From Fibrobacteria bacterium (GTDB taxonomy: Bacteria > Fibrobacterota > Fibrobacteria > UBA11236 > JADFYW01), in assembly GCA_015232855.1 (NCBI GenBank), contig JADFYW010000005.1:19926-83925 (forward strand): a stretch of 64,000 nucleotides of DNA, written 5' to 3'. How positions within the stretch are numbered: the first letter of the stretch is position 1; each line of letters begins with the position of its first letter. Both the position numbers and the translations under genes were made by a program. The notes below the pieces were generated by a model. It saw only the letters and a list, made by a program, of their open reading frames with translations, searched no databases and had not been told where the DNA came from. Positions 35,806 through 64,000 of this stretch are shown here, in pieces.

Positions 35806-35812
35806 ATTTCCC

Positions 35813-39450: not shown

Positions 39451-39451
39451 G

Positions 39452-40039: not shown

Positions 40040-40077
40040 AAGCCCTTTCTTTAGTATTGACCGACCAGTCATTCATA

Positions 40078-40106: not shown

Positions 40107-40495
40107 GTACAATTTTTCATTCTCTTTATAGCATTACCAATTCTGAGTAAAAGCTCTGCACTTTCCTCTACCAGTGGCACATCAAATACACCTTCTTTTA
40201 AGCCTTGCCTGATAAGCCAGTAATAGCGTTTATCTATCAATTTCATCGAAACAAACGATTAGATCTTTAGGCATTCCTAATTTATTATTGAAAGAGCAAA
40301 ACAGAAGGAAATACAAAATAATGAAACAGTTAACAGTTCAATATGAAACAAGGAATAATTTTTGAAACAAACCGCACATCAAAAATGTCTAAAAATCAAA
40401 AGAAAGGACATGGCATGCTATTTGCGAAAGATTAAGAACTAATAAGTGGAGTACAATATTACCACTTTCATTTAAAAAAAGAAGTGAGGCCCAGG

Positions 40496-41335: not shown

Positions 41336-41421
41336 GTTCTTAATTCATCAGCTGGCAGTTATTAGGAACAACTCACCCGTAATAGAGTAACTGATAACGA
41401 GCCTCGGATTTGTTATATTTT

Positions 41422-42015: not shown

Positions 42016-42255
42016 TTACGCCTCCCCGTTTTGAGCCATGTTTAGACATATGCCTATATAAAATAAATATTACGCTATAAACAGAGGCGCGTCAGGTAAA
42101 ATTTGCTACATTTCCCCCTCTTTGTAAATAAGCTGCTGCTTTGGATTTGCCTATGGGAAAAATTAAAAAATTCTGTCATTACCTGCATTTCAACAGGGGT
42201 CATGATATTCTGGTTCATATGGTCATAGCGAAGTAAACATAAACAGGATAAGAAT

Positions 42256-43914: not shown

Positions 43915-43954
43915 TCACCATTATATGAGTCATGGAGACACGGAGAGATAATTA

Positions 43955-46944: not shown

Positions 46945-46994
46945 AAAAAGGCTAAACATCCTCAGACATTCTTTTTTTTATTATTTTGTTTACC

Positions 46995-47822: not shown

Positions 47823-47902
47823 CATCTGAGTCTTCTTAGAGCAAAAGTTTCAATTAAGCTGTTGCTAACACACTACTGAATTCAGCTTTATACCTCATCT
47901 GC

Positions 47903-48113
47903 TGGATTGCCCGGTCAACAGACTGTGTCATAAGTAAGAAAATGCTCCCCATGTACGTCATTGCCCGGCGTGACCGGGCAATCCAGTGAACGAAAGTGAG
48001 CAAAATAGAAGAAAATCGCCATTTCTTTTGGTGGATTCCCCGGTCAAGCCGTGGAATGACATCGTTGAATCATTTTTTCATACTTATGACACAGCCTGCA
48101 AGCCGGGCAATGA
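47903..48113. repeat. REP-like hairpin split by an insertion
   Basis: GGATTGCCCGGTCAA (47903-47917) and CAAGCCGGGCAATGAC (48098-48113) together reconstitute one REP hairpin, GGATTGCCCGG-TCAAG-CCGGGCAATGAC. Confidence 0.8.
47918..48097. mobile_element. 180-bp palindromic MITE-like element inserted in a REP loop
   Basis: Terminal inverted repeats CAGACTGTGTCATAAGTA / TACTTATGACACAGCCTG (17 of 18 match). Flanking CAA direct repeats at 47915-47917 and 48098-48100. Two internal REP hairpins at 47956-47983 and 48032-48059 in inverse orientation. No coding capacity. Confidence 0.65.
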
Positions 48114-48315
48114 CATGTTCATCGCATTAATAATTTTTATTACTTTAAAACAGGAATTGGTGAGCTGTCCAGTAAATTCATTCCAAGTTTTCTTTCACCA
48201 TTTCGAATAAAACTTTACTTTAAAGTAATTCCTTTCTTTAAACGCCTCCTCACTTACCACTTTCCGAAAAAGTAGTTGGTTTATAGTTTTTTTCTTGACA
48301 GTACGACATATGGTA

Positions 48316-48332
48316 TACCACAAGATGTGGTA
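48316..48332. promoter_or_regulatory. 17-bp perfect palindrome upstream of nrdD (candidate NrdR-type or other operator)
   Basis: TACCACA-AGA-TGTGGTA lies 16 nt downstream of a TTGACA hexamer (48295-48300) and about 146 nt upstream of the nrdD ATG. The adjacent ACACAATAAGTTGTTG (48332-48347) loosely resembles an NrdR box. Confidence 0.3.
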
Positions 48333-48477
48333 CACAATAAGTTGTTGCGTGTAAGCTTTCTTTAAACTATTTTCTTCCTGTTCAATTCTTATAAATAATG
48401 ATTTCTCTAATTTTCAATTTTAATGTTTCACAACGAGCCCAATTTTTATCAACCGTTTATTCATAAAGGTGATCTCC

Positions 48478-50628: not shown

Positions 50629-50632
50629 ACTG

Positions 50633-51331
50633 ATGCATATTGCAGGACTTCAAAAATGCTCATTAATTGACTTTCCAGGAAAATTGGCAGCTACGGTATT
50701 CACTAATGGCTGTAATTTCAGGTGCCCTTTTTGTCATAATGCACAGCTGCTTCGAGGCTCTCCCAGCCGGAACCAGTTCAGTACAACAGATATTTTTAAG
50801 TTTCTTGAAAAGCGGAAGGACTTGCTTGATGGTGTTGTTATAACCGGGGGGGAACCTACACTCCAGACAGATTTACTTGACTTTATAAATACGATAAAAT
50901 CTATGGGTTTTCTGGTAAAACTCGATACCAATGGATATCGTCCTCACATTCTAAAATCAGTAATCCAATCGGGAATGGTTGACTATATCGCAATGGATAT
51001 TAAGAGCGGATGGCGAAATTATAGTGATGCAGCAGGAATAAACATAAACATTGAGAAAATCGAACAAAGCATTTTTCTCATAAAAAATTCAGGAGTTTCC
51101 CACGAGTTCAGATCAACTTTAATGAGACCATTTTTATCACCTCGAGATGTACTTGACATCGCAGCGTACTTATCTGGTACAGAGCAGTACCGTCTGCAAA
51201 AGTTTCTTATGCCTGAAAACTTTCCAGAAAGGGATTTAACCTATCTGATACCATTTACCAAACGGGAATTAAATAAACTTCAGGAGCAAGTTGACCGAAT
51301 CATTACAAAGAGGTTTGTAATCGCAGCCTAA
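50633..51331 (+). CDS. nrdG: anaerobic ribonucleotide reductase activating protein (radical SAM)
   Basis: The CNFRCPFCHN CX3CX2C cluster, GVVITGGEPTL, and its position 4 nt after nrdD. Confidence 0.9.
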   Translation: MHIAGLQKCSLIDFPGKLAATVFTNGCNFRCPFCHNAQLLRGSPSRNQFSTTDIFKFLEKRKDLLDGVVITGGEPTLQTDLLDFINTIKSMGFLVKLDTNGYRPHILKSVIQSGMVDYIAMDIKSGWRNYSDAAGININIEKIEQSIFLIKNSGVSHEFRSTLMRPFLSPRDVLDIAAYLSGTEQYRLQKFLMPENFPERDLTYLIPFTKRELNKLQEQVDRIITKRFVIAA

Positions 51332-51360
51332 TAAGAAAGAATTTGGGAGGTACCGAGCAG

Positions 51361-53376
51361 TTACAACGCAGTCACCTGTCCATCCTGTATGACAAAAGTT
51401 TTAGGCCCCATCATTTTCTTATTCACATTGAAAAAATATTCTCCGATTTTGATAGTTACGCCAGGATAAAATTCTCTCCTTATAATAATTCTGGCACTTT
51501 CATTATCTGCGAGTTTTTCTTCAATAATTTTACGACGCTCTTTAAATGAATCAAGCTGTTTATTCAGCTTTTTTTGGGTCTCAGAAAGCTTGGTTACGAT
51601 TTCCAATTCTTTTTTGGAAAGTTCTTCTCCCTTCTGTCTTTTTCTGGCTAACCTTTTTAAATGCTCTTCGATTTTATCAGATTTGGCCCTGTAGGTTTTT
51701 ATTTTTTCATTAGTTGTATACCGTTCTTCCAACAAAGCATAATCAACACCCGCTTCCAGGAGAGTCTTGGTGCCATTAATATTACCTGCAGCTTCACATA
51801 TTATTTCACGTCGTGCTGAAACATGCCCCCCGACAATTCCAATTTTCTGTCCACCAACTTCTAGCGAGCCCCTGGCAAAAATTTGAGCATTTACCACTTC
51901 TTTAGCGATACAGATATTTTTTCTGCTACGAACCATCTGGTTCCGGACATAAAGTATGCCAACTTCATCAGCCGCTTCAATAACACCAGCCCCATTTCCA
52001 ACAAAACCGGATTTGATCAGCACCTTGCCACCGGCTTTTATCCGACAATCCTCCACTAATCCAAAAATTTCAACATCCTGTCCCACATCAATATTAAAAC
52101 CAGCTTTTACATCCCCTTTTACCATTAAGGTTTTTGGATACGCAATATTTCCTGTGGAAAAATCCACATGTTGTTCAACTACAAAACATTCTGAAACCTC
52201 AATAAATTTTCCGGTCAAACGAGCATTCCCAGAAACTGAAGCCACTAAAAGAGTTTCATCAGAGGCGGATATTTCAGTATTATTACCACCAGGAAGTACA
52301 ACATGTACACCATCTTTAGCAGGCAAAACTTCTCCCTGAATTCCGGTTCCTGGAGTACCCAGGGTAGGAGCATGTAATTTTGCCAGTTTCTGAAGTTTTT
52401 TAACCGGCTTTATAACACTGACGTCTTTGAAATCTGCGCTACCATCTTCCCGAATAGATGGTTTAAGCGATGTTTCAAACGCAAGTAAATGCTCTACTTT
52501 TCCATCAATTCCATCCACCGCTTTTATTTCTTCTGCGGCCAACACCTCCACCACTTTAAAATTCGCCCTGCAATCATCCAACGCTTCATCAATTTCTTCT
52601 GTTTTATAACCTGTCCGTATGCCAGCCTGTTTCATTGATTCCAAAGCAGCATCAAGATCTATTGCTTTTCCTTTAAAGTCTGGAGGATATACCGTAATAG
52701 TAGCGTTTGTTTTATCAGGAGAAATCTGCACATCAACATACCCGTCAAAATTTACAGGCAGAATAGATAATTCTGCATCCACTACACATATAACGCCGGT
52801 TTCTTCAGCCAGGTAGGTTTTTCGCTGTGGATAATACGCTACACCGTTGCCTGTTTTAAACAAATTATCAATACTCGCCTCGATGGGTTTACCATACACA
52901 TCAATACCATCAATTACCATATCTTCAATAGCAAGTTTCAATACTTCAGCACCAACATCTACCCTGTCTATGGGACAAATATCTTGTACTAAGGTATGAT
53001 GCATAACTTTTAATGCTTCTACTTCAGCAAGGGTCTTCACATCGGTTATCCCCATAAATGCAAGCATAATATCAGGAGAGAATTCCACTTTGGGAGGAAT
53101 CCCTTCTGCAAGCAGAGTTTCAGAATAATCTCCTGCCTTTAATTTTATAATAAGCTCTTTTAATGCATTATTTGTAACCCCCGTAACGATTCCTTTTTCT
53201 TCTAATACATTAACAAGGGCTCCTTCCGTAATTTTGGGAACATCTTCTATTTTGCCAACAAATCGAAAGGTTGCCTGAAATTTATCTTCTGAAACAACTA
53301 TCTGAATAAGGGAATCAATAGTACGTTGACCACCCGTTTCGGTATTATCTTGTCTTTGGTTTTCAGGGTCTGGCAT
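51361..53376 (-). CDS. FapA-family (DUF342) protein
   Basis: N-terminal segment DKFQATFRFVG...ITEGALVNVLEEKGIVTGV. Beta-helix-like repeats GDVKAGFNIDVGQDVEIFGLVEDCRIKAGGKVLIKSGFVG... A C-terminal coiled coil (KLSETQKKLNKQLDSFKERRKIIEEKL) followed by VTIKIG. Confidence 0.7.
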   Translation of the reverse strand: MPDPENQRQDNTETGGQRTIDSLIQIVVSEDKFQATFRFVGKIEDVPKITEGALVNVLEEKGIVTGVTNNALKELIIKLKAGDYSETLLAEGIPPKVEFSPDIMLAFMGITDVKTLAEVEALKVMHHTLVQDICPIDRVDVGAEVLKLAIEDMVIDGIDVYGKPIEASIDNLFKTGNGVAYYPQRKTYLAEETGVICVVDAELSILPVNFDGYVDVQISPDKTNATITVYPPDFKGKAIDLDAALESMKQAGIRTGYKTEEIDEALDDCRANFKVVEVLAAEEIKAVDGIDGKVEHLLAFETSLKPSIREDGSADFKDVSVIKPVKKLQKLAKLHAPTLGTPGTGIQGEVLPAKDGVHVVLPGGNNTEISASDETLLVASVSGNARLTGKFIEVSECFVVEQHVDFSTGNIAYPKTLMVKGDVKAGFNIDVGQDVEIFGLVEDCRIKAGGKVLIKSGFVGNGAGVIEAADEVGILYVRNQMVRSRKNICIAKEVVNAQIFARGSLEVGGQKIGIVGGHVSARREIICEAAGNINGTKTLLEAGVDYALLEERYTTNEKIKTYRAKSDKIEEHLKRLARKRQKGEELSKKELEIVTKLSETQKKLNKQLDSFKERRKIIEEKLADNESARIIIRREFYPGVTIKIGEYFFNVNKKMMGPKTFVIQDGQVTAL

Positions 53377-53500
53377 AATAATTCAAATGAAAATAGAAAT
53401 TCTTCTTTATATTATATCATGATTTTAGATTTTACTCCAGAAAGCTTTCGTGACAATCTGTTCAAATAGAGGCTAAAACCAGTTTTTTTGCTTTTTCCGC

Positions 53501-53530
53501 AAAAAAAAGAAGAAATATGTTATTCCTTCT
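53501..53530 (-). terminator. Rho-independent terminator after the PorV-like gene
   Basis: The minus strand reads AGAAGGAAT-aacat-ATTTCTTCT-TTTTTTTT, a 9-bp stem with one G-U pair, located 24 nt after the stop. Confidence 0.6.
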
Positions 53531-53553
53531 TAAAAATCGGCATGCTTAAAACT

Positions 53554-54588
53554 TTATGGTGACCAAATACTCAGGCCAATAATAGGAGAATTATTCCCCT
53601 GAAAGATGGTATTAATCTGATAACCAGCATCTATCGCCACATTCAAATAAGAACCCATTGGGAAGGCCAGGCCACCTCCCATAGCAAATACCTTTGCTTT
53701 ATCCTTTTCAAATACATCTTCGGAATACCCCCCACGTAACGCAATTAATTCTTTAACCCAACCTGAACTAAACATGCCAAGAGGATACAACTCCAGCCCC
53801 AGACATAGCCTGTTTTTAATATCTTCATAGGTTTTAAAAAATTCAAAATCAAATGGAGGAGGCAGGTGATACAAACCCGGTTCAATATCTACAGAAATAA
53901 CCGCACCAGAGAGAAACCGGTAAGCCATTCCAACCTTAATAGACAAAGGGACGTATTCCGTATATTTTCCTTCTGCGGTTCCGGCCTCATTTTCAGTATC
54001 CCAGGCAACTGCAGAAAAAGCGTCTTTCATCACCGCTCCAATACATAATTTTTCTTTCCAAAATACGCCTTTTACACCAAAATCAAAACCAGCCAGTCCC
54101 ATCCCCGTACCGGAAACTTTCGTATTTTGCCCACTTTCGGGGTCAAGGAAATCTTCTCCACCACTTCCCGTTGAAGCATAACGTAATTTCCAGCTGGTGC
54201 CAAAACGCAAGAAACCCCAGGCCGTTGAAACTCCAAAGAATAACTCGTTTTCACTGTAAATGGCATCACCATTCTGTATAGCTACAACACCAAATGCCAA
54301 TGGTGTTTTCGAAAATCGGTAACTGGCTGCAGGAAAATTATAAGGTATCAGATCAAAAGCACGTGAATACGCATATCCTCCACTCCATTTAACATCAAAG
54401 AGATCCGCAGGATTATAGAGTAATGCTTCTGTCGCATGAGGATTTGCCGTTTGAGCACCAGCAAGAGCAGCCCCTCTGGGGCCCAGATCCCGGGTAGCAA
54501 AAGCGCCAGGCATACCACTGAGTTCATCTGCCAAACCGTTTATAACAACCAGTAGAACGGTAAGCAATATTAAGGGTAGACGCCCCAT
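53554..54588 (-). CDS. PorV/PorQ-like outer-membrane beta-barrel protein
   Basis: Signal MGRLPLILLTVLLVVINGLA. The segment GAFATRDLGPRGAALAGAQTA...ALLYNPADL resembles the PorV/PorQ N-terminal motif. Strands alternate to the C-terminus. The alternative GTG start at 54624 overlaps the upstream stop (GTGA). Confidence 0.55.
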   Translation of the reverse strand: MGRLPLILLTVLLVVINGLADELSGMPGAFATRDLGPRGAALAGAQTANPHATEALLYNPADLFDVKWSGGYAYSRAFDLIPYNFPAASYRFSKTPLAFGVVAIQNGDAIYSENELFFGVSTAWGFLRFGTSWKLRYASTGSGGEDFLDPESGQNTKVSGTGMGLAGFDFGVKGVFWKEKLCIGAVMKDAFSAVAWDTENEAGTAEGKYTEYVPLSIKVGMAYRFLSGAVISVDIEPGLYHLPPPFDFEFFKTYEDIKNRLCLGLELYPLGMFSSGWVKELIALRGGYSEDVFEKDKAKVFAMGGGLAFPMGSYLNVAIDAGYQINTIFQGNNSPIIGLSIWSP

Positions 54589-54620
54589 TACTATTGGCCT
54601 GTATGTAAGATTTAAATGTA

Positions 54621-57600
54621 TCACTTTAACAATACCACTTGTTTTAAATATGTCTTTACATCTTCTGAATCACTTACGGTTAATTTAAGGACATAGCGTC
54701 CATTTCTGCATAATTTTCCATCGGTTGTTTTACCATCCCAAAGATAGAGCGATTGGTCGCCCAACCGTGTTTCCCGGGAAGCGCCTTCCTCCTGTTTTCG
54801 GGTACCCGCCACAACCGAATCTGATTTTGCAATCACATTTTTATTTGATTTAAAAACCAAGTCTCCACGCATATTATAAACTTCTATCTGTACCCCAATA
54901 AGGCTGGCTTTTCGTGAGCTAACCTCGTATTGCAATTGTAGTGCCCATGGGTCATTTGGCGTAAATGGATTGGGCATTACTTTTAATTGATATGCGCCCA
55001 GGGGACGACTTTCCATCTGAACAGCAAAAGGAGAAAATGTTGTCGCTAAAGCCGTGATAACCGAGTCAGAAGTCATATTTCCTTCTGTTTCCAACTTATC
55101 CCATTGTAAACGTTTTGAGTTCCAGTGACCAACAAAGATTTCCCCATTTCTTGCGCTCGCTTTAACAGGAAGTGATACATATGCCCCACGACTTCTTTTA
55201 AAAGGCTGAGGAGGCGTAAGTTCTATATTAATAATATCGCCAGCGAGTTCAGTTGAAGGAGACACAACGAGTATATCTGATACCTCAGGTTGAGTAAAAT
55301 CTATCCTAACAGCTGATTCAAGCCCATCAAGTGGTATTGCTAAACCAGCCCCCTTACCATTCTGTACCGTTACAGTACTGGAATCACCTGGTTCAACTTG
55401 CAAATAGGTTTTGAGAGGTACCCGAAAACTTAATTCACTCACCGGGTCTCTAATAATTAAGGTATCTGCCCCTGCTACTTCATTATTTGGATAAAAGATC
55501 CCCTGACTAAATTCATCATTAAATGCTGTATCCAAAACAGCTGAATCAGTAAGTGACCATTCAGGAGAAATAATAAACGAAACGTCATCTTTGGTGTACC
55601 CAACAGCGCTGAACTGATACCCTTTAGATGTCCGATTTCGTAGTTCTATTACAGATCCTTCGGTCAATAACATATTTTCGTCTTCAAAGCGCAAAGCTAT
55701 TTTTTCAGCTTCAATATCTTTTACTACCACGCTGATTTCTTTCTGCACCGTGTTTTTATCAACCTTTACCGTACAATACACATGAAAGTTGCCAGGACCA
55801 CCAGCCAATAACGTAACCGTTCTCGGATTTTTGGAAGACTGCTGCAAGGTTGATCCATTACTTTCCAAAGTCACCTTTTCTGACTCGAACGACCAGGTAA
55901 TAGAAATGTCTTCATTTTTTTCAACATTCCTATCAAAATAAACATTTAAATCTCTGCCATTATCGCCAAACAAATTAACATTTGCAATCATTCGTCCTTC
56001 TTTGGCCATAAGGACAGAATCAGCTTCAAGGCTGGCAGGAGCAAAACTGATAGCTTTTAGCACATTTGGATCAAAGACTTTAAACGAACGAGGTGCATTT
56101 GCATTGGTATAAACAGCTAGCTCAGAACTATTATTACTTGATATGATTGCATCCTTTTGTGTTACGCGATAATAATATTGAACTTCTCCTGGTTTTAAGA
56201 AAGCCGGCATTGTAGCAGAATAAGTATAGATACCCTGACTGGATATTACGTCCATACTAAGAGAATCATAAACCGATGCGTCACTGTATTTGTAATACCA
56301 TTTAGCAACAATATTGTTTTTAATTTTATCAACAGAAACACTCTTTTCGATTTCCAACAAGCCACTAAAAGGTTCCCCCATTATCGTATCCTGAAGTTGG
56401 ACTATTCTCCAGGGAAAGGGTATTTGGTCAATCCGTATTTCATCCGTATTTAACGATATTGTATAAGGGAGTAACGGTAACCGTGTTTTTTCCAAGACGG
56501 ATACTGCGATTTCATAATTTCCTTTTTGCATATCAGCAGGGGATTGATATAATCCCGCGATAGCAGTGTCAGCAAACATTTTTAGTTCACCCACATAGAC
56601 TTCTGCCGCAATCGGTGCCGTTCCATCTGAAGTTATTTTCGCTTTGAATTGAGAAGAAGGATAAAACAAGGAATCACTTACTTCTGGAATAGCTGCAGAA
56701 AGTTGAAAAAATGCCTTTAAATCATCATATCCATCCCTCTGTATACTCACACTATAATTATTAGGTATACGGAGCCCGCTGAATAACACGGGGTTATCTT
56801 TTTTAGAAACCACTTCATCCTCTGAAAAATCTGAAACAAGCCGCATTTCAATATTTTCAACGGGTTTTCCTTTTTCAACAACCGTTAATCTTATTTTTCC
56901 ATCAAAGGAAAAAACGGGAACAAGCCTCAGTACCTGAGTACCTGAGCCATAGGTGTCCAATATCACTTTCTGATTCGATAAGGATTCGTAGCCTGCTGCA
57001 GTTATTGAATCAACATTCACAAATGCCCCGGGGGTTGTAGAAAAATCCGCGATATAGACTCCATTACTGTCACTTTCAACGGTATCCACCAATCCTGATT
57101 CTGTGGTAATAAATAATTTTGCATTGACGATATTCAGTTTTTCATTAATCGCACTTACCACAATACCGCTTAAACGATTCCGAATGCGCGAGAGTTTGAA
57201 ATTAACTTCCTGAAACTCTTCTCCAGAAAAAACAAGTGTATCCGTAAACTGCGTAAAGGCCAAATGATTTATATGAATAACATAAGTTCCCGCTTCTATG
57301 CCTTTTAAAAGGTACTGACCAGCAACATCCGACTTCAGTGTTAAAAAATCGTCTCCTTTAATAAAAACCATATCTACTTCTACGCCAGTTCCCGCTTCAT
57401 CAAGAACTATCCCAAACAATCCCGTTTCTTTTGGAGAAAGATTAAAATCAGCTACACCCTCAACTTGATTATTTGTGATTTTTATATGCACATCACCGGT
57501 TAGATTGATAAACCCCTCTTTTTCAGCTTGCACGAGATAGACTCCGTTTCTCAACCCACTAACGACAAAACGCCCTAAACTATCTGTTATTGCCTGGGTA

Positions 57601-60600
57601 ATATTTCCATCAATCTTATTTATTATTGAAATCGAAACTCCAGGAATATGCTGACCATCAGACATAGCACTACCACTTACATCAGCAAGTTTTATGAGTT
57701 TAAGTAATGTAGAAACAGTCTGGTTAAGAGGTAATACAAATGTCGTATCAAAAGAACTCAGTTTCTCTGTCAATGCCTTTATGGTATATGCCGTCTGACT
57801 TTCCAGATTTAAAAAAGCAAAATCTCCAGAGGCATTACAGGAGGTCTGTTCTCTGCTTCCAGATGTATTCAACAAAGAAACCGTCGTGCTTGTAAAATCT
57901 ACCGTTGAATCAGACACGACTCTACCTGATACCGATTGGGTGTAGGCTGTAAGTGTTATATTTTTTTCAAAAGCCTCGTTACCGATTGTTACATATTCAG
58001 CATAATCTTTATATCCTGGCAAAGTAACTTTTAGTAAATATTCTTTTGGCACATCAACACTAAAAAAATAAGTAGCGTCGTCCCTTGTTAACACGGTATC
58101 TTCTACTTTTGTATTGGTATCTTGTAATACAAGTTTAATATTATTACGGCCCTGGTTATTTTTTTGGTTCCTTGACTCATAAACTTTGCCATATACACCT
58201 GCAGATAATTCTTTTAATTCAAATTCTATTGTTTCTTGAGCAGAAAAAGTACCATCAAGATATACTGACCTGCTTACCGTCTCTGAAAAATAATTATTCT
58301 TGGCAACAGATATTTTATAATTAGCGGCAGCCAGCCCTTTTAATACAAAAGATTGCCCCTTTGCATTTTCATAAAATTCACCGTTAATATATATTGAAAA
58401 ATCTGCAACATTAGTATTTATAGTTACCATTGAATTATGCTCATTTATTAATGTGGTGAAAGATTCATCTTCAACACCAGTAATGGTAATGGTCTTAGTC
58501 ACATTATCAAATCCAACAGGGTCCAGAAGGGTTTTCACCGTTAATACGGTCCCAGGTAAGAGGTCATCTAATCCAAACGTGCCACTACCAGACGTGGTAA
58601 CAGTGTCTTTTGTATTTGAATTGATTATCAAGACTTTGGAATTATCGAGTTTCCTGGAATTGGTCAATAAAATATCTGAATAAGAGACCCTGCTCCTTTT
58701 TAGGGCAAAATTAAAACCTGTTGTACTCTCACCAGCTTTAAGCTCTATTTCTTTGCTAACCGGAACAACACCCGCAACAGCTACCGTCACTTTTAGCAAC
58801 GACCCTTTTTCCGCCCTAAGATTGTTTATCCGGTAACTTCCGTCTGTCCCCGGATAACCAGAGCGTGAGGGGTTACCTGCGCCTGAAATCTGTATTCTTG
58901 CATCAGCAGATTTTTCTCCATCCAGAGTAATTTCACCGGAAATACTGGAAGAAAAATCTTCTGCAAGTATATTAAGACTTGTAGATTTTATGATGGTAAT
59001 ATTTTGTTCCACACACTTATATCGAGGAGAAATACAACCGATGCGGTATTGAACACCTACCGGTAAATCTGATATCGTAAACCCACCGTTTGTATTGGTA
59101 GCAGTCTGTATTTCTTCAAAACTGCCACTAAAGGGTATCAATTTCATAGACAAGGCCTTAACCGTAACACCGTCTTGATTTTTAACTATACCATTTACCG
59201 TTCCCTTTTGCTGTTCCACATTTACCCTAAAACTGTGCTTTCCCGAAACCGTTAATACAGAAGACGAAGTAATTGCATATCCCGAATTTGTAATGGTAAG
59301 TTCATAATTGCCCAAAGGAAGTGCAAATTCGAAAGGACTTGCCTCCAACGAAGGATATTCATCCCTTGTATTTTCATTTACCAGATTAAATCTTAAGTGA
59401 GATACATTTACTACTCCTTCTGGTATTAAAGTCACTTCACCAGAAAAAGGAGTTAATTCAAAATTTATCCCTGATAATATTCCACCTTCTATGAGACTTT
59501 TGCCAGAATAAATCTGATCTACTGCATGTTTATCTAAATATACCTTAATCATATATTCACCAGCAGGAAGAGAATCAAAAGAGAATATACCATCTGATGC
59601 GCTAAACGCAGATCGGCTTAACGCCCCAGATTGCACAAATATCTGGACATTTCCAAGTACATCACCATTTGACAAACGGCAATTACCGGAAATTTTTCCC
59701 GTCCAGGGTATTAATTCCAAATCTGCTTTCGAAATTAAATTAGCTGAAATAAAAACATTTTGCTTAGCTTCGTAATAATTATGAGCTGAAGTGGTTAAGG
59801 AATAAAATCCCGCTGCCAATCCATCCAAACGAAAGCGCCCCTGAGCATCAGTTTTTATCATAGGGACTGAAACTCCAATTCTGGATAAAATGATATTGGT
59901 ACCAACTACCGGTTGAGAGGCATTATTCAACACCAATCCAGAAATACCACCCTCATCAATCAGCAAAGTGTCTTTGGCTCCTGAAATTGAAGTACCTACA
60001 TTAAGGGTAATGTTTTTTTCTTTATTAAGATATCCTACTTTCTGCATCGCTAATAAATAATTGCCAGCTACGAGATTAAATCGATATAGCCCTTTTGAAT
60101 CAGAAATGAGAGACTGTGATTCACCGCTATTTTTATCAGTAATGGTAAGACTTACATCCGAAAGCCCACTTCCTGTCTTTGAAGAATAAACCGTGCATGA
60201 ATAGGATATATCCGAAGGATATAACGTTATCCGGGCAAATTGAGTTTCATCCGCAGAAAGTGTATATACGGTTTCGGAAGATGGGATATAATCGACACAT
60301 TCCGCTTTAACACTATAGGCTTTATTTGCACCTATTTCAAATTGAAATTCACCTGCACTTGAAACCGGAGCGGTATTCACTCCGTCAATGCTGGTATATA
60401 TTACCTGACAGTTTTTATTTAAAAGAGGAGATCCCAAAGCATACAACGCTCCGGATATTATACCGGTATTTTTAGTAAGACGAATATCTTTACCTGAATA
60501 TTGAACACCAGGATTTAATCTTAAATTTGTTAAAGTATCAGACAAATAGCCGTCTTTTTTTCCAAAAACAGTATACTCACCGGAAAATAAAGAAATATTA

Positions 60601-63041
60601 AAACGCCCCTGATTATCAGACAAAATCGAGGTAACTTTACCGGTTGTCAATTCTCTGGCATAGACTGTAATAGAAGGTGCTGGCCCGTTTTTCGTATAAA
60701 CAATTCCCCCGATTCTTGCCGCGTTGCCAACACCGGTAAAATTAATATTATACAGAGTATCGTTGCTTCCAATATTCAATTGAGGCGTTTCGGAAAAAGA
60801 ATATCCGGCTAAAAACGCGGTTAAAGTATTGGTACCTTTTTCTACTGATAGTTTATACTTTCCAAGTGCATCAGTAACAACATAATCTCCTGTTTCTACC
60901 ACACGTACCGTCACATTTGAAAGCTTTTGGATACCGGTTGCTGTTTTTTCAGAGACCTGGCCGTTAATAAACGAGGCGTTTTTCTTAACAAGGAAATCAG
61001 CATAAATATCCTGTCCATATTCCAACAACACATTATGTTTGCTCAGAGAAGAGTACCCTTTTTTTATAGCAGTTAGTACCCAGTTCCCGGCAGGTAAACT
61101 CATTAAATAAGCACCGTTTCTATCGGTTGGTTGTAAAATTTCTCTGCTGTCTGAGATAGCTTTTACAATAACATCAGGCTGATATTTCCCATCAGTATCT
61201 TCAACCGTTCCCGATACGGTAGAAGCTCCTGGTTCGAGAGACAATGATTTTTTAATATCAGATATTATTTCGAGGAACATTGTCTTACTTGAAAACCCTG
61301 CTTTTTCAAAAACAAGTTCAATCTGGCCAGATTGTGCATTAAAGGAAAAAGAGCCATCGCCCAGTGTTTGAAAAAATCTATTACTACCATCTTGTTTTGC
61401 TGTTACCGATACATCATAAATATTATCACCAGTATAACTGTTTGAAACATTTCCACTTACTCTATAAGTGAGACTTTTCATAGCAAAATCAATTTTTCCG
61501 ACCTTATTGTCATTACTTACGGTTGCGATACCGGGCTCAGGAGTAGCATATTCCTGGTGCTTGACAGATACTCTCCAGGAACCAAATGGCACTTCAAAAT
61601 TAAAATCTCCTGTGTAACTTGAAAGCTGGTGTTTAGGATCCATATCAGGTTCATTCACACTTGAAATAGATACGAGAGCATTTGTGATGGCACTTCCAGA
61701 GCCTTGTGCTATCACGGTACCATAAACCTTTCCTAGTGTGGGTGATAAAATCATTTTTTGGTCAAAGCTTCCTTTCAGTTCAAACTGAATTGTCTTTGGT
61801 TCAAAACCATCTTTTTCAGCCTTTATTGAATAATTACGAAAAGGCATATGTTCAAACCTGATAAACCCTTGCTCATCAGTTGGGCCTTCTGCTATAAAAG
61901 GATGTCGTAAACCCGGAACACGATCAAAGGATATTTTCGCATAGGGAACAGGTTTTTCGTTATTATCAAATACCCGTATTACGATGGAATTCGCATCAAC
62001 ACTATTATAAAAAGAAAAGGATTCAGAAGCATTCGCCCTGCCTTTGGCATCATACGCATAAACACGCCATGAATAAGGCAACTCGCGTAGTAACCCATTT
62101 GGGTCGTCCAACACCGCTTCGGGATTATTGACATACTTTTGAAGAATAGGAGATGTTGCCTCATTATCAGAAATCACATTTTCTTCAAATAAATCGATTC
62201 GGTAATTTACAGCACCGTTTACTGCAGACCACCTGAAAACAAGCGGCGCATTTGATGTTAAAGTATCATTATTTGGAGGTATGGATAGAACAGGCTTTGG
62301 TGGTACATCCGCTTCATAAGTAAAACTCATCGGAGTAGAAATAACTGTTGAAATAATATTTGCAGAAGGATCGTAATTGTTTAATACCAGCCAGTTGTAG
62401 GTTTTCCCTGACATTAATGGTGGTGGTTTAACACTGCTTCCAAAGTCGGATTTTTCTCCATACCTAATACTTTTGTTTCTGGTGGTTGCCTGCCAGATTG
62501 CATTAAGGTTCTGCAACTTTTCATCTTTGATAAAAAACGGTTGGTCCGAAATTAAAACGGTATAGTAAGGCGCATTACCGGTCCATTTGAATTCAGGAGT
62601 TAAATCACTTAGTTTTGTTTCATTTACTGGGCTTACGAGATCAGGCGCCTTGCTAGATTCCATAACTATTTGAAATTCAGCCGACTTCTTACTTCCACTG
62701 ATGAGAATACAATAATTTATTCCTATTTTCAGATCGGTTTCAAGGTATTCCGATTCAACTTCATTGGCATAAATAAATACTTTTGTTCCAGAAGCTGGCC
62801 ATGGAGGGATATGTACCAGATTGTAATGTTCAATATCAACACCTCCTCCGGGTATTGATGAACTTTTAAGTTGTACGTCTCCACTCCCTCCGGTATATCC
62901 AACTTTTATCGAATCTTTTTGACGATAGAGCCCTAATGGCAATTGGGTCAAAACAATATCCTGAGCAAAGCAATAACTAGACATTAGTACAGTTACAGTA
63001 AGTAGGTATAAGGTTCGGTGTAACAGCATTAATTTCCTCAT
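54621..63041 (-). CDS. 2806-aa secreted surface protein: N-terminal FN3-like modules, more than 15 carboxypeptidase-regulatory-like (CarboxypepD_reg/Cna-B-type) beta-sandwich repeats, FlgD-Ig/T9SS-type C-terminal domain
   Basis: Signal MRKLMLLHRTLYLLTVTVLMSSYCFAQ. Repeats of the type GTVEDTDGKYQPDVIVKAIS...TDRNGAYLMSLPAGNWVLTAIKKGYSS. C-terminal domain MPNPFTPNDPW...IEVYNMRGDLVF...LWDGKTTDGKLCRNGRYVLKLTV. Confidence 0.85.
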   Translation of the reverse strand: MRKLMLLHRTLYLLTVTVLMSSYCFAQDIVLTQLPLGLYRQKDSIKVGYTGGSGDVQLKSSSIPGGGVDIEHYNLVHIPPWPASGTKVFIYANEVESEYLETDLKIGINYCILISGSKKSAEFQIVMESSKAPDLVSPVNETKLSDLTPEFKWTGNAPYYTVLISDQPFFIKDEKLQNLNAIWQATTRNKSIRYGEKSDFGSSVKPPPLMSGKTYNWLVLNNYDPSANIISTVISTPMSFTYEADVPPKPVLSIPPNNDTLTSNAPLVFRWSAVNGAVNYRIDLFEENVISDNEATSPILQKYVNNPEAVLDDPNGLLRELPYSWRVYAYDAKGRANASESFSFYNSVDANSIVIRVFDNNEKPVPYAKISFDRVPGLRHPFIAEGPTDEQGFIRFEHMPFRNYSIKAEKDGFEPKTIQFELKGSFDQKMILSPTLGKVYGTVIAQGSGSAITNALVSISSVNEPDMDPKHQLSSYTGDFNFEVPFGSWRVSVKHQEYATPEPGIATVSNDNKVGKIDFAMKSLTYRVSGNVSNSYTGDNIYDVSVTAKQDGSNRFFQTLGDGSFSFNAQSGQIELVFEKAGFSSKTMFLEIISDIKKSLSLEPGASTVSGTVEDTDGKYQPDVIVKAISDSREILQPTDRNGAYLMSLPAGNWVLTAIKKGYSSLSKHNVLLEYGQDIYADFLVKKNASFINGQVSEKTATGIQKLSNVTVRVVETGDYVVTDALGKYKLSVEKGTNTLTAFLAGYSFSETPQLNIGSNDTLYNINFTGVGNAARIGGIVYTKNGPAPSITVYARELTTGKVTSILSDNQGRFNISLFSGEYTVFGKKDGYLSDTLTNLRLNPGVQYSGKDIRLTKNTGIISGALYALGSPLLNKNCQVIYTSIDGVNTAPVSSAGEFQFEIGANKAYSVKAECVDYIPSSETVYTLSADETQFARITLYPSDISYSCTVYSSKTGSGLSDVSLTITDKNSGESQSLISDSKGLYRFNLVAGNYLLAMQKVGYLNKEKNITLNVGTSISGAKDTLLIDEGGISGLVLNNASQPVVGTNIILSRIGVSVPMIKTDAQGRFRLDGLAAGFYSLTTSAHNYYEAKQNVFISANLISKADLELIPWTGKISGNCRLSNGDVLGNVQIFVQSGALSRSAFSASDGIFSFDSLPAGEYMIKVYLDKHAVDQIYSGKSLIEGGILSGINFELTPFSGEVTLIPEGVVNVSHLRFNLVNENTRDEYPSLEASPFEFALPLGNYELTITNSGYAITSSSVLTVSGKHSFRVNVEQQKGTVNGIVKNQDGVTVKALSMKLIPFSGSFEEIQTATNTNGGFTISDLPVGVQYRIGCISPRYKCVEQNITIIKSTSLNILAEDFSSSISGEITLDGEKSADARIQISGAGNPSRSGYPGTDGSYRINNLRAEKGSLLKVTVAVAGVVPVSKEIELKAGESTTGFNFALKRSRVSYSDILLTNSRKLDNSKVLIINSNTKDTVTTSGSGTFGLDDLLPGTVLTVKTLLDPVGFDNVTKTITITGVEDESFTTLINEHNSMVTINTNVADFSIYINGEFYENAKGQSFVLKGLAAANYKISVAKNNYFSETVSRSVYLDGTFSAQETIEFELKELSAGVYGKVYESRNQKNNQGRNNIKLVLQDTNTKVEDTVLTRDDATYFFSVDVPKEYLLKVTLPGYKDYAEYVTIGNEAFEKNITLTAYTQSVSGRVVSDSTVDFTSTTVSLLNTSGSREQTSCNASGDFAFLNLESQTAYTIKALTEKLSSFDTTFVLPLNQTVSTLLKLIKLADVSGSAMSDGQHIPGVSISIINKIDGNITQAITDSLGRFVVSGLRNGVYLVQAEKEGFINLTGDVHIKITNNQVEGVADFNLSPKETGLFGIVLDEAGTGVEVDMVFIKGDDFLTLKSDVAGQYLLKGIEAGTYVIHINHLAFTQFTDTLVFSGEEFQEVNFKLSRIRNRLSGIVVSAINEKLNIVNAKLFITTESGLVDTVESDSNGVYIADFSTTPGAFVNVDSITAAGYESLSNQKVILDTYGSGTQVLRLVPVFSFDGKIRLTVVEKGKPVENIEMRLVSDFSEDEVVSKKDNPVLFSGLRIPNNYSVSIQRDGYDDLKAFFQLSAAIPEVSDSLFYPSSQFKAKITSDGTAPIAAEVYVGELKMFADTAIAGLYQSPADMQKGNYEIAVSVLEKTRLPLLPYTISLNTDEIRIDQIPFPWRIVQLQDTIMGEPFSGLLEIEKSVSVDKIKNNIVAKWYYKYSDASVYDSLSMDVISSQGIYTYSATMPAFLKPGEVQYYYRVTQKDAIISSNNSSELAVYTNANAPRSFKVFDPNVLKAISFAPASLEADSVLMAKEGRMIANVNLFGDNGRDLNVYFDRNVEKNEDISITWSFESEKVTLESNGSTLQQSSKNPRTVTLLAGGPGNFHVYCTVKVDKNTVQKEISVVVKDIEAEKIALRFEDENMLLTEGSVIELRNRTSKGYQFSAVGYTKDDVSFIISPEWSLTDSAVLDTAFNDEFSQGIFYPNNEVAGADTLIIRDPVSELSFRVPLKTYLQVEPGDSSTVTVQNGKGAGLAIPLDGLESAVRIDFTQPEVSDILVVSPSTELAGDIINIELTPPQPFKRSRGAYVSLPVKASARNGEIFVGHWNSKRLQWDKLETEGNMTSDSVITALATTFSPFAVQMESRPLGAYQLKVMPNPFTPNDPWALQLQYEVSSRKASLIGVQIEVYNMRGDLVFKSNKNVIAKSDSVVAGTRKQEEGASRETRLGDQSLYLWDGKTTDGKLCRNGRYVLKLTVSDSEDVKTYLKQVVLLK

Positions 63042-64000
63042 ATCCGATACCGGACGGTGGTTTTAAGAATTGCCAAAGGTAATGATATAAGAGAAACATC
63101 AAATATATACTTGTCTCTTATCTCAAAGGTATACCCTAAATTCAAAATGGGCATGACTTTCACATCGATTTCTCTGCTATTTTCATAAAATATTGGTTCT
63201 CCATAATACGCACCTGCATTTAAGAAAAAGCCAAACAAATTGATGCCTATAGCCCCTTTATGCTGCAATTGAGAACCCAACCGCCCTGTGGAATTTTCTG
63301 TTATCAGAGAATCTGAACCATCAGCAGCAGCAACGATATCGTTATAGGTTGTATCAAAAGCAGCTTTTTGTGAGCGGTGTTTATAGGTTAAAGATAATCC
63401 CCGGTAATACCAGGCATAATCAAAATTCAATTTAAGCCAGGATAGTGAAGTATGTAAAGAAACTCCAACCCTTGAAGGTAATTGTAATTCAACATCATAA
63501 ATTTCATTAGTGACTTTTTTAGTCAGTGTGAGTTTAGTAAGGTTTAATTTACCTACATCAAAAAATTCTGCATCCTCACTACCTCCCCCAGCACTTTCAT
63601 CTTGATCAATGGCATTAAGTATGTAATGTTCACCACTAATATATCCCAGTTTAAGAGTACCATTATAACTTGCGGCAAAATCAATACCAAAATATTTTAG
63701 AAAGGTCCAGTTTGCTCCAAACGCCCCCCCCGGAGCACTGGCTTTTGAGTATCCCACATAGTTCACTTTCAGATCATCGGTATAGGGTGTACCATCGAGA
63801 TTAAAATAAGACTCCTTTTCGCTCTGAGAAATAAAGCCATCTATACTTCCCACAGCATTAAAATCCATATACGCCATATATTGATGCACAGCAAAACCAA
63901 ACTTCAAACCAGTTCCAGGTACCTCAGTAGCAATGCCTGCTCCCCTACGGTTAAGACCAAGATAGAGAGCCAACCCCGTTTGCACACTAAAACGAGCTTT
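63038..64000 (-). CDS. putative outer-membrane beta-barrel protein (5' end outside window)
   Basis: The frame is open to the window edge. Amphipathic strands alternate and are rich in G/Y/F/N. The stop overlaps the giant gene's ATG (ATGA at 63038-63041). Confidence 0.5.
   Translation of the reverse strand, partial: KARFSVQTGLALYLGLNRRGAGIATEVPGTGLKFGFAVHQYMAYMDFNAVGSIDGFISQSEKESYFNLDGTPYTDDLKVNYVGYSKASAPGGAFGANWTFLKYFGIDFAASYNGTLKLGYISGEHYILNAIDQDESAGGGSEDAEFFDVGKLNLTKLTLTKKVTNEIYDVELQLPSRVGVSLHTSLSWLKLNFDYAWYYRGLSLTYKHRSQKAAFDTTYNDIVAAADGSDSLITENSTGRLGSQLQHKGAIGINLFGFFLNAGAYYGEPIFYENSREIDVKVMPILNLGYTFEIRDKYIFDVSLISLPLAILKTTVRYRI

What the first reader, a model, noticed from the sequence alone, without database searches (positions are those of the whole stretch)
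53501..64000. Translationally coupled operon: beta-barrel, 2806-aa sorting-domain protein, PorV-like barrel
Seen:
- A barrel-like ORF, open at the window edge, ends in TGA overlapping the ATG of the 2806-aa gene (ATGA at 63038-63041).
- The giant gene's TGA is overlapped by a GTG (54621-54624), or followed 33 nt later by the ATG, of a 345-356-aa barrel protein.
- The N-terminus of that barrel protein (…GAALAGAQTA…LLYNPADL) looks PorV/PorQ-like.
- A good terminator follows at 53501-53530.
- The giant protein has a signal peptide and a FlgD-Ig/T9SS-type C-terminal domain.

Established:
- In Flavobacterium the giant adhesin gene sprB is followed by sprF, a PorP-like barrel required specifically for SprB delivery.
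- PorV shuttles CTD-bearing cargo.

Inference:
- This is a self-contained cargo-plus-dedicated-barrels module.
- With two different barrels flanking the cargo, it may be a private export or anchoring device for one giant surface fibre in a lineage where T9SS is poorly described.
Basis: partly seen in the sequence, partly recalled or inferred. Interest (0 to 1): 0.65.

Follow-up and report, generated by a model that had tools for sequence, protein, structure and literature searches.

The report
Giant surface protein with two dedicated barrels
An uncultured Fibrobacteria bacterium carries a tightly coupled three-gene operon, conserved across its relatives, that encodes a 2806-residue surface protein with a type IX secretion tail and two outer-membrane barrels, one related to the PorV/PorQ carriers and one from an unnamed FadL/TodX-like family; it is a new variant of the known "cargo plus private carrier" arrangement.

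Summary
On the minus strand, 63038->64000 (partial), 54621-63041 and 53554-54624 form a stop/start-overlapping operon (ATGA, GTGA).

**Source.** The window comes from a Fibrobacteria MAG (HQK83_02300/02310).

**Conservation.** The same triad, in the same order, occurs in every sufficiently long orthologous locus from about 12 uncultured Fibrobacterota genomes.
- The giant protein is 2799-2835 aa everywhere.
- It aligns almost without gaps at about 30% identity.

A second lineage has the same three parts in a different order.

**The three proteins.**
- The small barrel is a distant PorV/PorQ-family member: below the curated cutoff here, 76-88 of 90 bits in the variant lineage.
- The large barrel belongs to an unannotated family of about 200 clusters that is FadL/TodX-like by profile and by fold.
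- The giant has a signal peptide, a conserved head, about 20 transthyretin-like domains, and a divergent type-A/FlgD-Ig C-terminal domain (CTD).

**Best reading.** This is a T9SS cargo with a private PorV/PorQ-like carrier and anchor, plus a second FadL-like platform barrel.

**Not tested or not supported.**
- T9SS core genes could not be checked.
- Export by the barrels themselves is unlikely.
- The "good terminator" is weak.

It is a new variant of a known kind, of moderate interest.

The parts
63038..64000 (-). 3' 963 nt of the large-barrel gene (last 320 codons). The gene continues beyond the window. NCBI HQK83_02310 = P0038. Orthologues are 502-540 aa with a signal peptide, an N-terminal 'FGNPA' hatch motif and a C-terminal ...YR[IY] end.
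   Evidence: AF2 model of orthologue P0039 has pLDDT 66.7. Foldseek top hits are TbuX, FadL and TodX, then PorV and BamG. The family profile A6 hits TodX at 2.1e-8. There is no Pfam or NCBIfam assignment.
63038..63041 (-). ATGA stop/start overlap between the large barrel and the giant gene.
   Evidence: Orthologues have 0-1 nt between the stop and the ATG.
54621..63041 (-). Giant gene, 2806 aa.
   Evidence: CarboxypepD_reg 6.6e-123 with 15 stretches, plus CarbopepD_reg_2. Orthologues of 2799-2835 aa are colinear.
62964..63041 (-). Signal peptide of the giant (aa 1-26, cleavage predicted after CFA).
   Evidence: By inspection. Orthologues have equivalent N-termini.
61992..62963 (-). Conserved N-terminal 'head' (aa 27-350). 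No family assignment; faint Fn3-like signal only.
   Evidence: One of the two best-conserved regions, with 0.43-0.49 identity to the distant clade over residues 101-300. No Pfam hit (protein 6). PDB profile search gives only E about 0.5 to an Fn3 domain.
57162..61991 (-). Array of about 20 transthyretin-like (CarboxypepD_reg) domains, aa ~351-1960.
   Evidence: A self-trained repeat HMM finds 15 copies in the window protein and 20 in the eight distant-clade orthologues, at a spacing of about 80 aa. The alignment is nearly gap-free.
55002..57161 (-). C-terminal region of unknown fold (aa ~1961-2680).
   Evidence: No Pfam or PDB sequence hit. Conservation rises toward the C-terminus.
54624..55001 (-). 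C-terminal sorting-type domain (aa 2681-2806). It is of the FlgD-Ig / type-A CTD class, with a ~17-aa insertion.
   Evidence: Sub-threshold CHU_C, FlgD_ig and Por_Secre_tail hits in four orthologues. BLASTP E=1e-6 to the type-A CTD of window 6415-9204. It also matches the C-terminal ~100 aa of the PorU model at 5.8e-6.
54621..54624 (-). GTGA stop/start overlap between the giant and the small barrel.
   Evidence: The junction is ATGA at the same position in all 10 orthologous loci.
53554..54624 (-). Small-barrel gene: 356 aa from the GTG, or 344 aa from the ATG at 54588 (NCBI HQK83_02300 = P0001). It is a distant PorV/PorQ-family outer-membrane barrel with a signal peptide and the motif 'GAALAGAQTA...LLYNPADL'.
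   Evidence: PorV_fam 1e-7, 31.9 bits, aligned over the full length. 34 of 35 family members hit PorV_fam and 19 of 35 hit PorVQ2. AF2 pLDDT 68. Foldseek hits are BamG, TodX, CymD, PorV and FadL.
53470..53553 (-). Intergenic AT-rich hairpin plus U-run; a possible weak terminator that ends the operon.
   Evidence: A promoter-like site at 53456-53429 (minus strand, 10 of 12 matches) precedes the next gene, FapA. FapA is not syntenic in the orthologous loci.

Best explanation
The operon encodes a cell-surface protein of fixed length together with its own outer-membrane docking proteins.

**Proposed steps**
1. All three products are exported by Sec (signal peptides are seen).
2. The two barrels are inserted into the outer membrane.
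3. The giant protein has a head, about 20 transthyretin-like domains, a base and a type-A/FlgD-Ig-like C-terminal domain. Its C-terminal domain targets it to the general type IX secretion translocon.
4. The co-translated PorV/PorQ-family small barrel acts as its private carrier. It binds the C-terminal domain at the translocon and then stays bound, holding the protein on the surface. PorQ holds PorZ this way, PorV holds PorU, and SprF/PorP hold SprB/PG1035.
5. The FadL/TodX-like large barrel is a second obligatory membrane partner. It is most likely a platform that binds another conserved part of the giant protein or the small barrel.

**Shown here**
- Gene structure and translational coupling.
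- Conservation of the triad in two gene orders.
- Family and fold assignments.
- Similarity of the C-terminal domain to T9SS sorting domains.

**Inferred**
- Dependence on T9SS.
- Binding of the C-terminal domain by the small barrel.
- The role of the large barrel.
- Surface location and extended shape of the giant protein.
For: **Coupling**
- ATGA and GTGA overlaps are present.
- The giant/small-barrel overlap is conserved in 10 of 10 orthologous loci.

**Conservation of the triad**
- Every Fibrobacterota locus long enough to show all three genes has them in the same order: L001, L002/L003, L004/L005, L006/L012, L009, L011, L014, L016, L017 and L018. Truncated loci show the expected parts.
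- The three proteins diverge together: 55/50/56% identity to the nearest relative and 32/30/41% to the distant clade.
- A second lineage (L020, L027-L029) keeps the same three components in the order giant, small barrel, large barrel.

**Small barrel**
- PorV_fam E=1e-7 over the full length.
- 34 of 35 relatives hit PorV_fam (best 3e-15), and 19 of 35 hit PorVQ2.
- The variant-lineage counterparts score 76-88 bits against a 90-bit cutoff. They also hit the PorV and PorQ equivalog models, and one passes Pfam PorP_SprF (29.6 bits against a gathering score of 22.3).
- The fold matches PorV (6h3i_F, 8gl6_F), BamG and FadL/TodX.

**C-terminal domain**
- It is at the extreme C-terminus and shares the PNPF...WDGK..DG...G.Y pattern.
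- BLASTP E=1e-6 to a same-genome CTD that passes the PF18962 and TIGR04183 thresholds.
- Sub-threshold hits are consistent in four orthologues.
- The FlgD_ig hit is above threshold in the variant giant.

**T9SS in this genome and phylum**
- A type-A CTD protein lies in the same window.
- CTD-bearing enzymes are reported in the phylum (PMC6851124, PMC4814513).

**Precedents**
- PorU:PorV and PorQ:PorZ anchoring (PMC5562754).
- SprF-SprB and PorP-PG1035 (PMC9143113).
- Cognate PorP/SprF shuttles encoded next to their substrates (PMC12618676).
- PorV binding the CTD at the SprA lateral opening (PMC10994853).
- The FadL homologue BamG acting as a protein-binding platform (PMC12578637).
Against: - The window's small barrel scores far below the curated PorV_fam cutoff (31.9 against 90 bits). 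The C-terminal domain is below the gathering scores of all three CTD models.
- Both structure models are of mediocre confidence (pLDDT 67-68, TM about 0.5). Foldseek does not separate PorV from FadL or BamG.
- No T9SS core gene (sprA/sov, porK/L/M/N, porU) was seen. Only 64 kb of the genome could be read.
- Known private carriers for large adhesins are PorP/SprF-type and pair with type-B CTDs. This pairing, a type-A-like CTD with a PorV/PorQ-like barrel, has precedent only in PorU/PorV and PorZ/PorQ.
- Nothing tested here assigns a role to the large barrel.
- Nearly gap-free conservation of length is unusual for an adhesin. It may point to a different, structural role.
Confidence: 0.6

Rival explanations
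1. Nutrient capture and uptake device. The FadL/TodX-type large barrel, and perhaps the small one, would be a working channel for hydrophobic molecules. The giant protein would be a surface-displayed capture or enzyme scaffold that feeds it, much as surface proteins serve SusC-type transporters.
For: - The large-barrel family profile hits true hydrophobic-substrate channels: TodX 2.1e-8, a P. aeruginosa FadL homologue 3.8e-7, CymD 1e-5 and TbuX 7.7e-5. Its fold matches them too.
- Both barrels keep the N-terminal NPA hatch motif, which is deleted in a FadL mutant structure (2r4o).
- In the variant lineage the giant protein carries an N-terminal calcineurin-like phosphoesterase domain, so there it is an enzyme on a stalk.
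- The window encodes a beta-oxidation cluster and an acyl-CoA synthetase.
Against: - The beta-oxidation genes lie more than 20 kb away and are not syntenic with the module in other genomes.
- PorV and BamG are FadL homologues that bind proteins rather than transport lipids (PMC12578637, PMC10994853), so fold and hatch motif do not discriminate.
- The small barrel's best sequence relatives are PorV/PorQ, not FadL.
- The Fibrobacteria giants have no recognisable enzyme domain.
Confidence: 0.17
2. Self-contained private secretion system. The two barrels themselves would translocate and anchor the giant protein, independently of the T9SS.
For: - The module is compact, translationally coupled and conserved as a unit.
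- The C-terminal domain is below threshold for all T9SS CTD models.
- T9SS core genes were not observed.
Against: - Both barrels model as FadL-type barrels with an N-terminal hatch segment. From general knowledge, no member of this superfamily is known to translocate proteins; PorV acts only alongside the 36-strand SprA pore (PMC10994853).
- There is no POTRA, TpsB, autotransporter or usher-like feature in either barrel.
- The genome holds a standard type-A CTD cargo, which implies a T9SS.
Confidence: 0.08
3. Conserved envelope-architecture element. The giant protein would be a fixed-length structural strut or coat component, not an adhesin. The two barrels would be its membrane attachment points at either end.
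For: - Eleven orthologues of 2799-2828 aa fit into 2900 alignment columns at about 30% identity, with almost no indels.
- The repeat count is constant at about 20.
- Both termini are the best-conserved parts.
- There are two different barrels for one protein.
- There is a single copy per locus, in housekeeping-like surroundings in the distant clade (rluA, gidB and glnE nearby).
Against: - There is no direct evidence for two-ended anchoring.
- The variant lineage has a shorter giant (2189-2190 aa) with an enzyme head, which fits a displayed functional tip better.
- This reading is compatible with, and partly overlaps, the best explanation.
Confidence: 0.15

Closest known systems
SprB-SprF of Flavobacterium johnsoniae, and other type-B CTD / PorP-SprF-like pairs (PMC9143113, PMC12618676)
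   Same: A giant repetitive surface protein gene is immediately followed by a gene for a small outer-membrane barrel of the PorV/PorP/FadL superfamily. That barrel is needed specifically for the giant protein and stays bound to it.
   Different: - The barrel here is PorV/PorQ-like rather than PorP/SprF-like. The window protein has no PF11751 hit.
- The C-terminal domain is of the type-A/FlgD-Ig class rather than type B.
- A second, larger FadL/TodX-like barrel is always present.
- The phylum is Fibrobacterota, not Bacteroidota.
- No gliding-motility context was seen.
PorQ-PorZ and PorV-PorU sub-complexes of the Porphyromonas gingivalis attachment complex (PMC5562754, PMC10947112)
   Same: PorV/PorQ-family barrels hold a surface protein that carries a type-A-like C-terminal domain. 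Two FadL-like barrels work together in one surface complex.
   Different: - PorU and PorZ are general T9SS machinery of about 80-130 kDa, not a 300-kDa repeat protein.
- Their genes are not arranged as a barrel-cargo-barrel operon.
- The large barrel here is not PorV/PorQ-like by sequence.
PorV, the general type-A substrate carrier (6H3I, 8GL6; PMC10994853)
   Same: The predicted fold is FadL-like, and the N-terminal G..A.AGA..A....NPA motif is shared. PorV_fam is the best-scoring NCBIfam family for the small barrel, although below cutoff.
   Different: - The small barrel scores 12 bits against the PorV equivalog model (cutoff 250).
- It is encoded with a single cargo rather than serving many.
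FadL/TodX/TbuX/CymD hydrophobic-substrate channels (PF03349)
   Same: The large-barrel family profile matches them by sequence and by fold. The NPA hatch motif is shared.
   Different: - Single members do not reach the Pfam threshold.
- The proteins are about 80-100 aa longer, with very long predicted strands.
- The genetic linkage is to a secreted giant protein, not to catabolic genes.
BamG of the Bacteroidota BAM complex (9HIV, 9HJM, 9N2D; PMC12578637, PMC12611786)
   Same: It is the top Foldseek hit for the small barrel. It is a FadL homologue used as a docking platform for surface proteins rather than as a channel.
   Different: There is no link to bamA or bamD here, and no surface-lipoprotein partners. 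BamG is an essential housekeeping protein.

Membership tests
PorV/PorQ family (NCBIfam NF033709) - small barrel | Score at or above the curated cutoff (90 bits). | tested here: not met
   31.9 bits, E=1e-7. 34 of 35 relatives hit the model (best E 3e-15). The variant-lineage counterparts score 76.2 and 88.1 bits, still just under the cutoff.
PorV/PorQ family (NCBIfam NF033709) - small barrel | End-to-end alignment to the model, including the N-terminal G..A.AGA...NPA segment. | tested here: met
   Residues 47-345 align to model positions 11-316 of 326. The motif is invariant in 35 relatives.
PorV/PorQ family (NCBIfam NF033709) - small barrel | FadL-like outer-membrane barrel fold. | tested here: inconclusive
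   AF2 pLDDT 68, pTM 0.69. Foldseek hits PorV 6h3i_F at 1.3e-6 (TM 0.52), and BamG, TodX and FadL at similar levels. The superfamily is supported. The strand number was not counted, and the subfamily is not resolved.
PorV/PorQ family (NCBIfam NF033709) - small barrel | Binds the C-terminal domain of a T9SS substrate, in a genome with T9SS core genes. | not testable with these tools
Indirect support: a type-A CTD protein lies in the window.
PorP/SprF family (PF11751, TIGR03519) - small barrel | HMM match at or above threshold. | tested here: not met
   The window protein and its 35 relatives give no hit at E<=0.1. One variant-lineage counterpart passes PF11751 (29.6 against 22.3 bits) but scores only 17.9 bits on TIGR03519.
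FadL/TodX/OMPP1 (PF03349) - large barrel | HMM match at or above the gathering score. | tested here: not met
   The window fragment and P0039 give no hit. 2 of 12 relatives hit weakly (best 0.0063). L020's counterpart scores 29.1 against 29.7 bits.
FadL/TodX/OMPP1 (PF03349) - large barrel | Profile-level sequence similarity and fold similarity to solved FadL-family channels, with an NPA hatch motif. | tested here: met
   Profile A6 against PDB: TodX 2.1e-8, 3dwo 3.8e-7, CymD 1e-5, TbuX 7.7e-5. Foldseek: TbuX 5.1e-6, FadL with TM about 0.5 normalised to the target. N82-P83-A84 are nearly invariant in 53 members.
FadL/TodX/OMPP1 (PF03349) - large barrel | Transports hydrophobic substrates. | not testable with these tools
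T9SS type-A sorting domain (TIGR04183 / PF18962) - giant C-terminus | HMM match at or above threshold. | tested here: not met
   PF18962 15.0 bits against 27; TIGR04183 14.4 bits against 23. FlgD_ig 18.6 bits against 27.
T9SS type-A sorting domain (TIGR04183 / PF18962) - giant C-terminus | A beta-sandwich domain of ~80-120 aa at the extreme C-terminus of a protein with a Sec signal, similar to accepted CTDs. | tested here: met
   BLASTP E=1e-6 to the threshold-passing CTD of window 6415-9204. It matches the C-terminal ~100 aa of the PorU model (5.8e-6). Sub-threshold hits are consistent in four orthologues. The variant giant's FlgD_ig hit scores 30.7 bits, above the cutoff of 27. The fold itself was not modelled.
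T9SS type-B sorting domain (PF13585 CHU_C / TIGR04131) - giant C-terminus | HMM match at or above threshold. | tested here: not met
   CHU_C scores 22.0 bits against 27 and covers only model positions 3-54 of 86. No TIGR04131 hit at E<=1.

The most novel reading that the evidence does not exclude
The triad is a previously unrecognised three-part surface organelle that spans lineages. A T9SS-delivered stalk of fixed length (about 20 transthyretin-like domains) would be held by a heterodimer of two FadL-superfamily barrels. The unnamed large barrel would still be a working channel, so that the tip of the stalk (an enzyme in one lineage, a conserved unknown head in Fibrobacteria) captures or releases a hydrophobic substrate that the barrel imports. 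That would make it a FadL-type counterpart of SusCD-like 'capture and import' systems.
Probability: 0.12. Interest if true: 0.7.

Novelty: new variant of a known kind. Interest (0 to 1): 0.45.

Why it matters
- Cargo-specific carriers have so far been worked out only in Bacteroidota, and only for PorP/SprF barrels paired with type-B domains. This module suggests the same logic operates in Fibrobacterota with a PorV/PorQ-type barrel and a type-A-like domain.
- It adds a second obligatory barrel from a family of about 200 sequence clusters that has no annotation.
- The near-perfect conservation of a ~2800-residue length at 30% identity hints at a surface structure whose dimensions matter.
- It gives a concrete, compact set of proteins for testing how PorV-like barrels choose and retain their cargo.

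Tried and rejected
- **Paralogous module elsewhere in the window.** I tested whether 17807-18757, 13319-17803 and 12169-13284 form a second copy. They do not. There is no similarity to either barrel, and the neighbours are a glycosyltransferase and a membrane protein.
- **Extending the contig.** Exact-sequence look-ups for window proteins failed four times, including for P0001. Everything upstream of 64000 is therefore known only from P0038 and from orthologous loci.
- **Sequence search of the small-barrel profile against PDB.** Nothing meaningful was found.
- **Are the two barrels paralogues?** Profile-profile comparison aligned only the ~33-residue NPA hatch segment (E=0.11 with A3; E=1.1e-3 and probability 21% with A6). 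They share a superfamily but are not close paralogues.
- **N-terminal head and C-terminal 730 aa of the giant against PDB.** No informative hits.
- **Metagenome scan with the small-barrel profile.** It returned only 6 loci, mostly duplicates of ones already held.
- **A longer operon.** In the distant clade a PKD protein and a FecR-domain protein precede the triad on the same strand. In the window's nearest relative the upstream genes are on the opposite strand. The core is therefore three genes.
- **Literature search for a prior description.** Searches on PorV2, on carboxypeptidase regulatory-like domain with T9SS, and on Fibrobacter with T9SS found no report of this module.
Full report
**1. 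What is in the sequence**

Three ORFs lie head to tail on the minus strand: 63038->64000 (open at the window edge), 54621-63041 (2806 aa) and 53554-54624 (356 aa from a GTG).
- The first junction reads ...CGG ATA TGA with the giant's ATG inside ATGA (63038-63041).
- The second junction reads ...TTA AAG TGA with a GTG inside GTGA (54621-54624). An ATG follows at 54588.
- Downstream there is an 11-bp AT-rich hairpin followed by eight U. The 84-nt region folds only marginally better than shuffles (z=-1.45), and the terminator scan does not call it.
- A promoter-like site at 53456-53429 then precedes the next gene, a FapA homologue.

**2. Source**

The small barrel is 100% identical to NCBI HQK83_02300, and the upstream ORF to HQK83_02310. 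Both are labelled 'MAG: Fibrobacteria bacterium', on an 84.7-kb contig.
- Exact-match look-ups for this contig failed, so the operon start beyond 64000 is known only from P0038 and from orthologues.
- P0038 as annotated (465 aa) has no signal peptide. Orthologues of 502-540 aa do (for example P0039 and P0043), so the annotated start is probably too far downstream.

**3. Conservation**

Gene-context look-ups and a scan of one genome per GTDB species returned the same triad in the same order from about a dozen uncultured Fibrobacterota genomes. The sizes are a large barrel of 502-540 aa, a giant of 2799-2835 aa and a small barrel of 335-357 aa.
- Every locus long enough to show all three genes has them.
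- The three proteins diverge in step. Identity to the nearest relative is 55/50/56%, and to the distant clade 32/30/41%.
- The giant/small-barrel junction is ATGA at the same place in all 10 loci examined. This identifies the window's GTG as the orthologous start.
- The large-barrel/giant junction has 0-1 nt between the stop and the ATG.
- In the window's nearest relative the genes upstream are on the other strand. In the distant clade a PKD-domain protein and a FecR-domain protein precede the triad on the same strand. The conserved core is three genes.
- No cultured Fibrobacter genome was returned. The scan was motif-based, so absence there is not proven.

**4. A second arrangement**

A lineage represented by L020 (a bin labelled Deferribacteres) and L027-L029 has the same three components in the order giant, small barrel, large barrel.
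- The giant is 2189-2190 aa, with an N-terminal calcineurin-like phosphoesterase domain, at least 11 CarboxypepD_reg domains, and a FlgD_ig C-terminal domain that scores above threshold.
- The small barrel is 307-311 aa and the large barrel 483-497 aa.

Retention of all three parts after rearrangement is good evidence that they work together.

**5. The small barrel**

The window protein matches NCBIfam PorV_fam end to end at E=1e-7, but with 31.9 bits against a cutoff of 90.
- Of 35 relatives, 34 hit PorV_fam (best 3e-15), 19 hit the 'PorV2' model, and 21 hit Pfam Toluene_X weakly. None hits PorP_SprF.
- The variant-lineage counterparts score 76 and 88 bits on PorV_fam. They also touch the PorV and PorQ equivalog models, and one passes Pfam PorP_SprF.
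- An AF2 model (pLDDT 68) finds Bacteroidota BamG, CymD/TodX, PorV (6h3i_F, 8gl6_F) and FadL, with TM about 0.5.

Conclusion: this is a distant member of the PorV/PorQ branch of the FadL superfamily. It is not a PorV orthologue, and it does not pass the curated threshold.

**6. The large barrel**

No Pfam or NCBIfam model matches the window fragment or its full-length orthologues.
- A full HMMER scan of 1.84 billion representatives finds 197 relatives (152 at E<=1e-10), nearly all 470-560 aa.
- A 53-member profile hits TodX (2.1e-8), a P. aeruginosa FadL homologue (3.8e-7), CymD (1e-5) and TbuX (7.7e-5) in the PDB.
- The AF2 model of P0039 (pLDDT 66.7) finds TbuX, FadL and TodX first, and PorV and BamG further down.
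- An N-terminal NPA motif is nearly invariant. It is the only segment that aligns with the small-barrel profile.

Conclusion: this is an unannotated, FadL/TodX-type barrel family. It is not PorV/PorP-like by sequence.

**7. The giant protein**

Its parts are:
- a signal peptide (aa 1-26);
- a conserved head with no family assignment (aa 27-350);
- about 20 transthyretin-like CarboxypepD_reg domains (aa ~351-1960);
- an unassigned region (aa ~1961-2680);
- a C-terminal domain (aa 2681-2806).

Eleven orthologues of 2799-2828 aa align into 2900 columns with almost no gaps. The head and the last 200 residues are the best conserved parts.

The C-terminal domain:
- gives sub-threshold hits to CHU_C, FlgD_ig and Por_Secre_tail in all four orthologues tested;
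- matches the C-terminal ~100 residues of the PorU model;
- aligns at E=1e-6 to the threshold-passing type-A CTD of the protein at 6415-9204 in this window, apart from a 17-residue insertion.

**8. Mechanism**

The best-supported reading is a T9SS cargo with a private carrier and anchor.
- Established work shows that PorV binds the substrate CTD at the lateral opening of SprA and pulls it out (PMC10994853).
- PorU and PorZ are held on the surface by PorV and PorQ (PMC5562754).
- SprB and PG1035 stay bound to SprF and PorP (PMC9143113).
- Cognate PorP/SprF shuttles are encoded next to their substrates (PMC12618676).

The present module fits that logic, with a PorV/PorQ-type barrel and a type-A-like CTD.

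The role of the large barrel is inferred only. The FadL homologue BamG shows that such barrels can serve as protein platforms (PMC12578637), but a real transport role cannot be excluded.

T9SS in the phylum is supported by CTD-bearing enzymes in F. succinogenes and Chitinispirillum (PMC6851124, PMC4814513) and by the CTD protein in this window. The core genes were not checked.

**9. Rivals**
- A capture-and-uptake device that uses the FadL-type channel (0.17).
- A fixed-length structural element anchored at both ends (0.15; this partly overlaps the main reading).
- A T9SS-independent private exporter (0.08). This is disfavoured because FadL-type hatch barrels are not known translocators and neither barrel has secretion-related domains.

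**10. Verdict**

I found no description of this triad in the searched literature. It is a new variant of a known kind. Its notable features are the second barrel family and the strict conservation of the giant's length. Interest is 0.45.

Noticed in passing
window 6415-9204 (-): A 929-aa protein with a Laminin_G_3 (LamG-like) domain and a C-terminal domain that passes the thresholds for Por_Secre_tail (PF18962 37.8 bits; TIGR04183 36.8 bits) and FlgD_ig. It is a standard type-A T9SS cargo in the same genome.
   Followed up: partly
window 53554-54624 and 63038->64000 (-): The NCBI start calls look off. HQK83_02300 starts at the ATG at 54588 (344 aa), although all orthologues start at the 4-nt overlap (here a GTG, 356 aa). 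HQK83_02310 (465 aa) lacks the signal peptide and first ~40-75 residues present in orthologues.
   Followed up: yes
L020 1794-11263; L027 2389-11494; L028; L029: A variant triad in another lineage, in the order giant, small barrel, large barrel. The giant carries an N-terminal calcineurin-like phosphoesterase (Metallophos) domain, so it is an enzyme on a long stalk. The 'Deferribacteres' label on the L020 bin was not verified.
   Followed up: partly
L012 7406-9951; L011 7391-9918: In the distant Fibrobacteria clade, a 548-aa PKD-domain protein and a ~303-aa FecR-domain protein lie immediately upstream on the same strand, with overlapping ends. The operon may be longer, or regulated, in that clade.
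   Followed up: partly
L009 (CAZRWX010000058.1): The record is titled 'uncultured Bifidobacteriales bacterium', yet it carries the complete triad at 50-60% identity to the window's proteins. The bin is probably mislabelled or contaminated.
   Followed up: no
window 11088-18757 (-): A 1494-aa protein with InlB B-repeat, Ig and chitobiase C-terminal domains is flanked by an unassigned 316-aa ORF, a GT4-type glycosyltransferase and a membrane protein similar to a surface-glycopolymer formation family. This is a separate surface-protein and glycosylation cluster, not related to the triad.
   Followed up: partly
window 34432-40072 (-): A cluster of a TetR regulator, a 967-aa MMPL/RND-type transporter, a LolA-like/DUF1329 protein and an unassigned 457-aa protein. 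It looks like a lipid or hydrophobic-compound export module.
   Followed up: no
window 22521-34063 (-): A fatty-acid beta-oxidation cluster: an acyl-CoA dehydrogenase, a fused 3-hydroxyacyl-CoA dehydrogenase/enoyl-CoA hydratase, a CCG/4Fe-4S oxidoreductase and an AMP-binding acyl-CoA synthetase. It bears on the 'FadL-type uptake' rival but is not syntenic with the triad elsewhere.
   Followed up: no
window 40484-53376: Neighbouring genes not conserved with the triad: a sigma-70-family factor (40484-41335), an XPB/ERCC3-type helicase (42256-43914), two M16 peptidases, anaerobic ribonucleotide reductase NrdD with its radical-SAM activase, and a FapA (flagellar assembly protein A family) homologue (51361-53376).
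   Followed up: no
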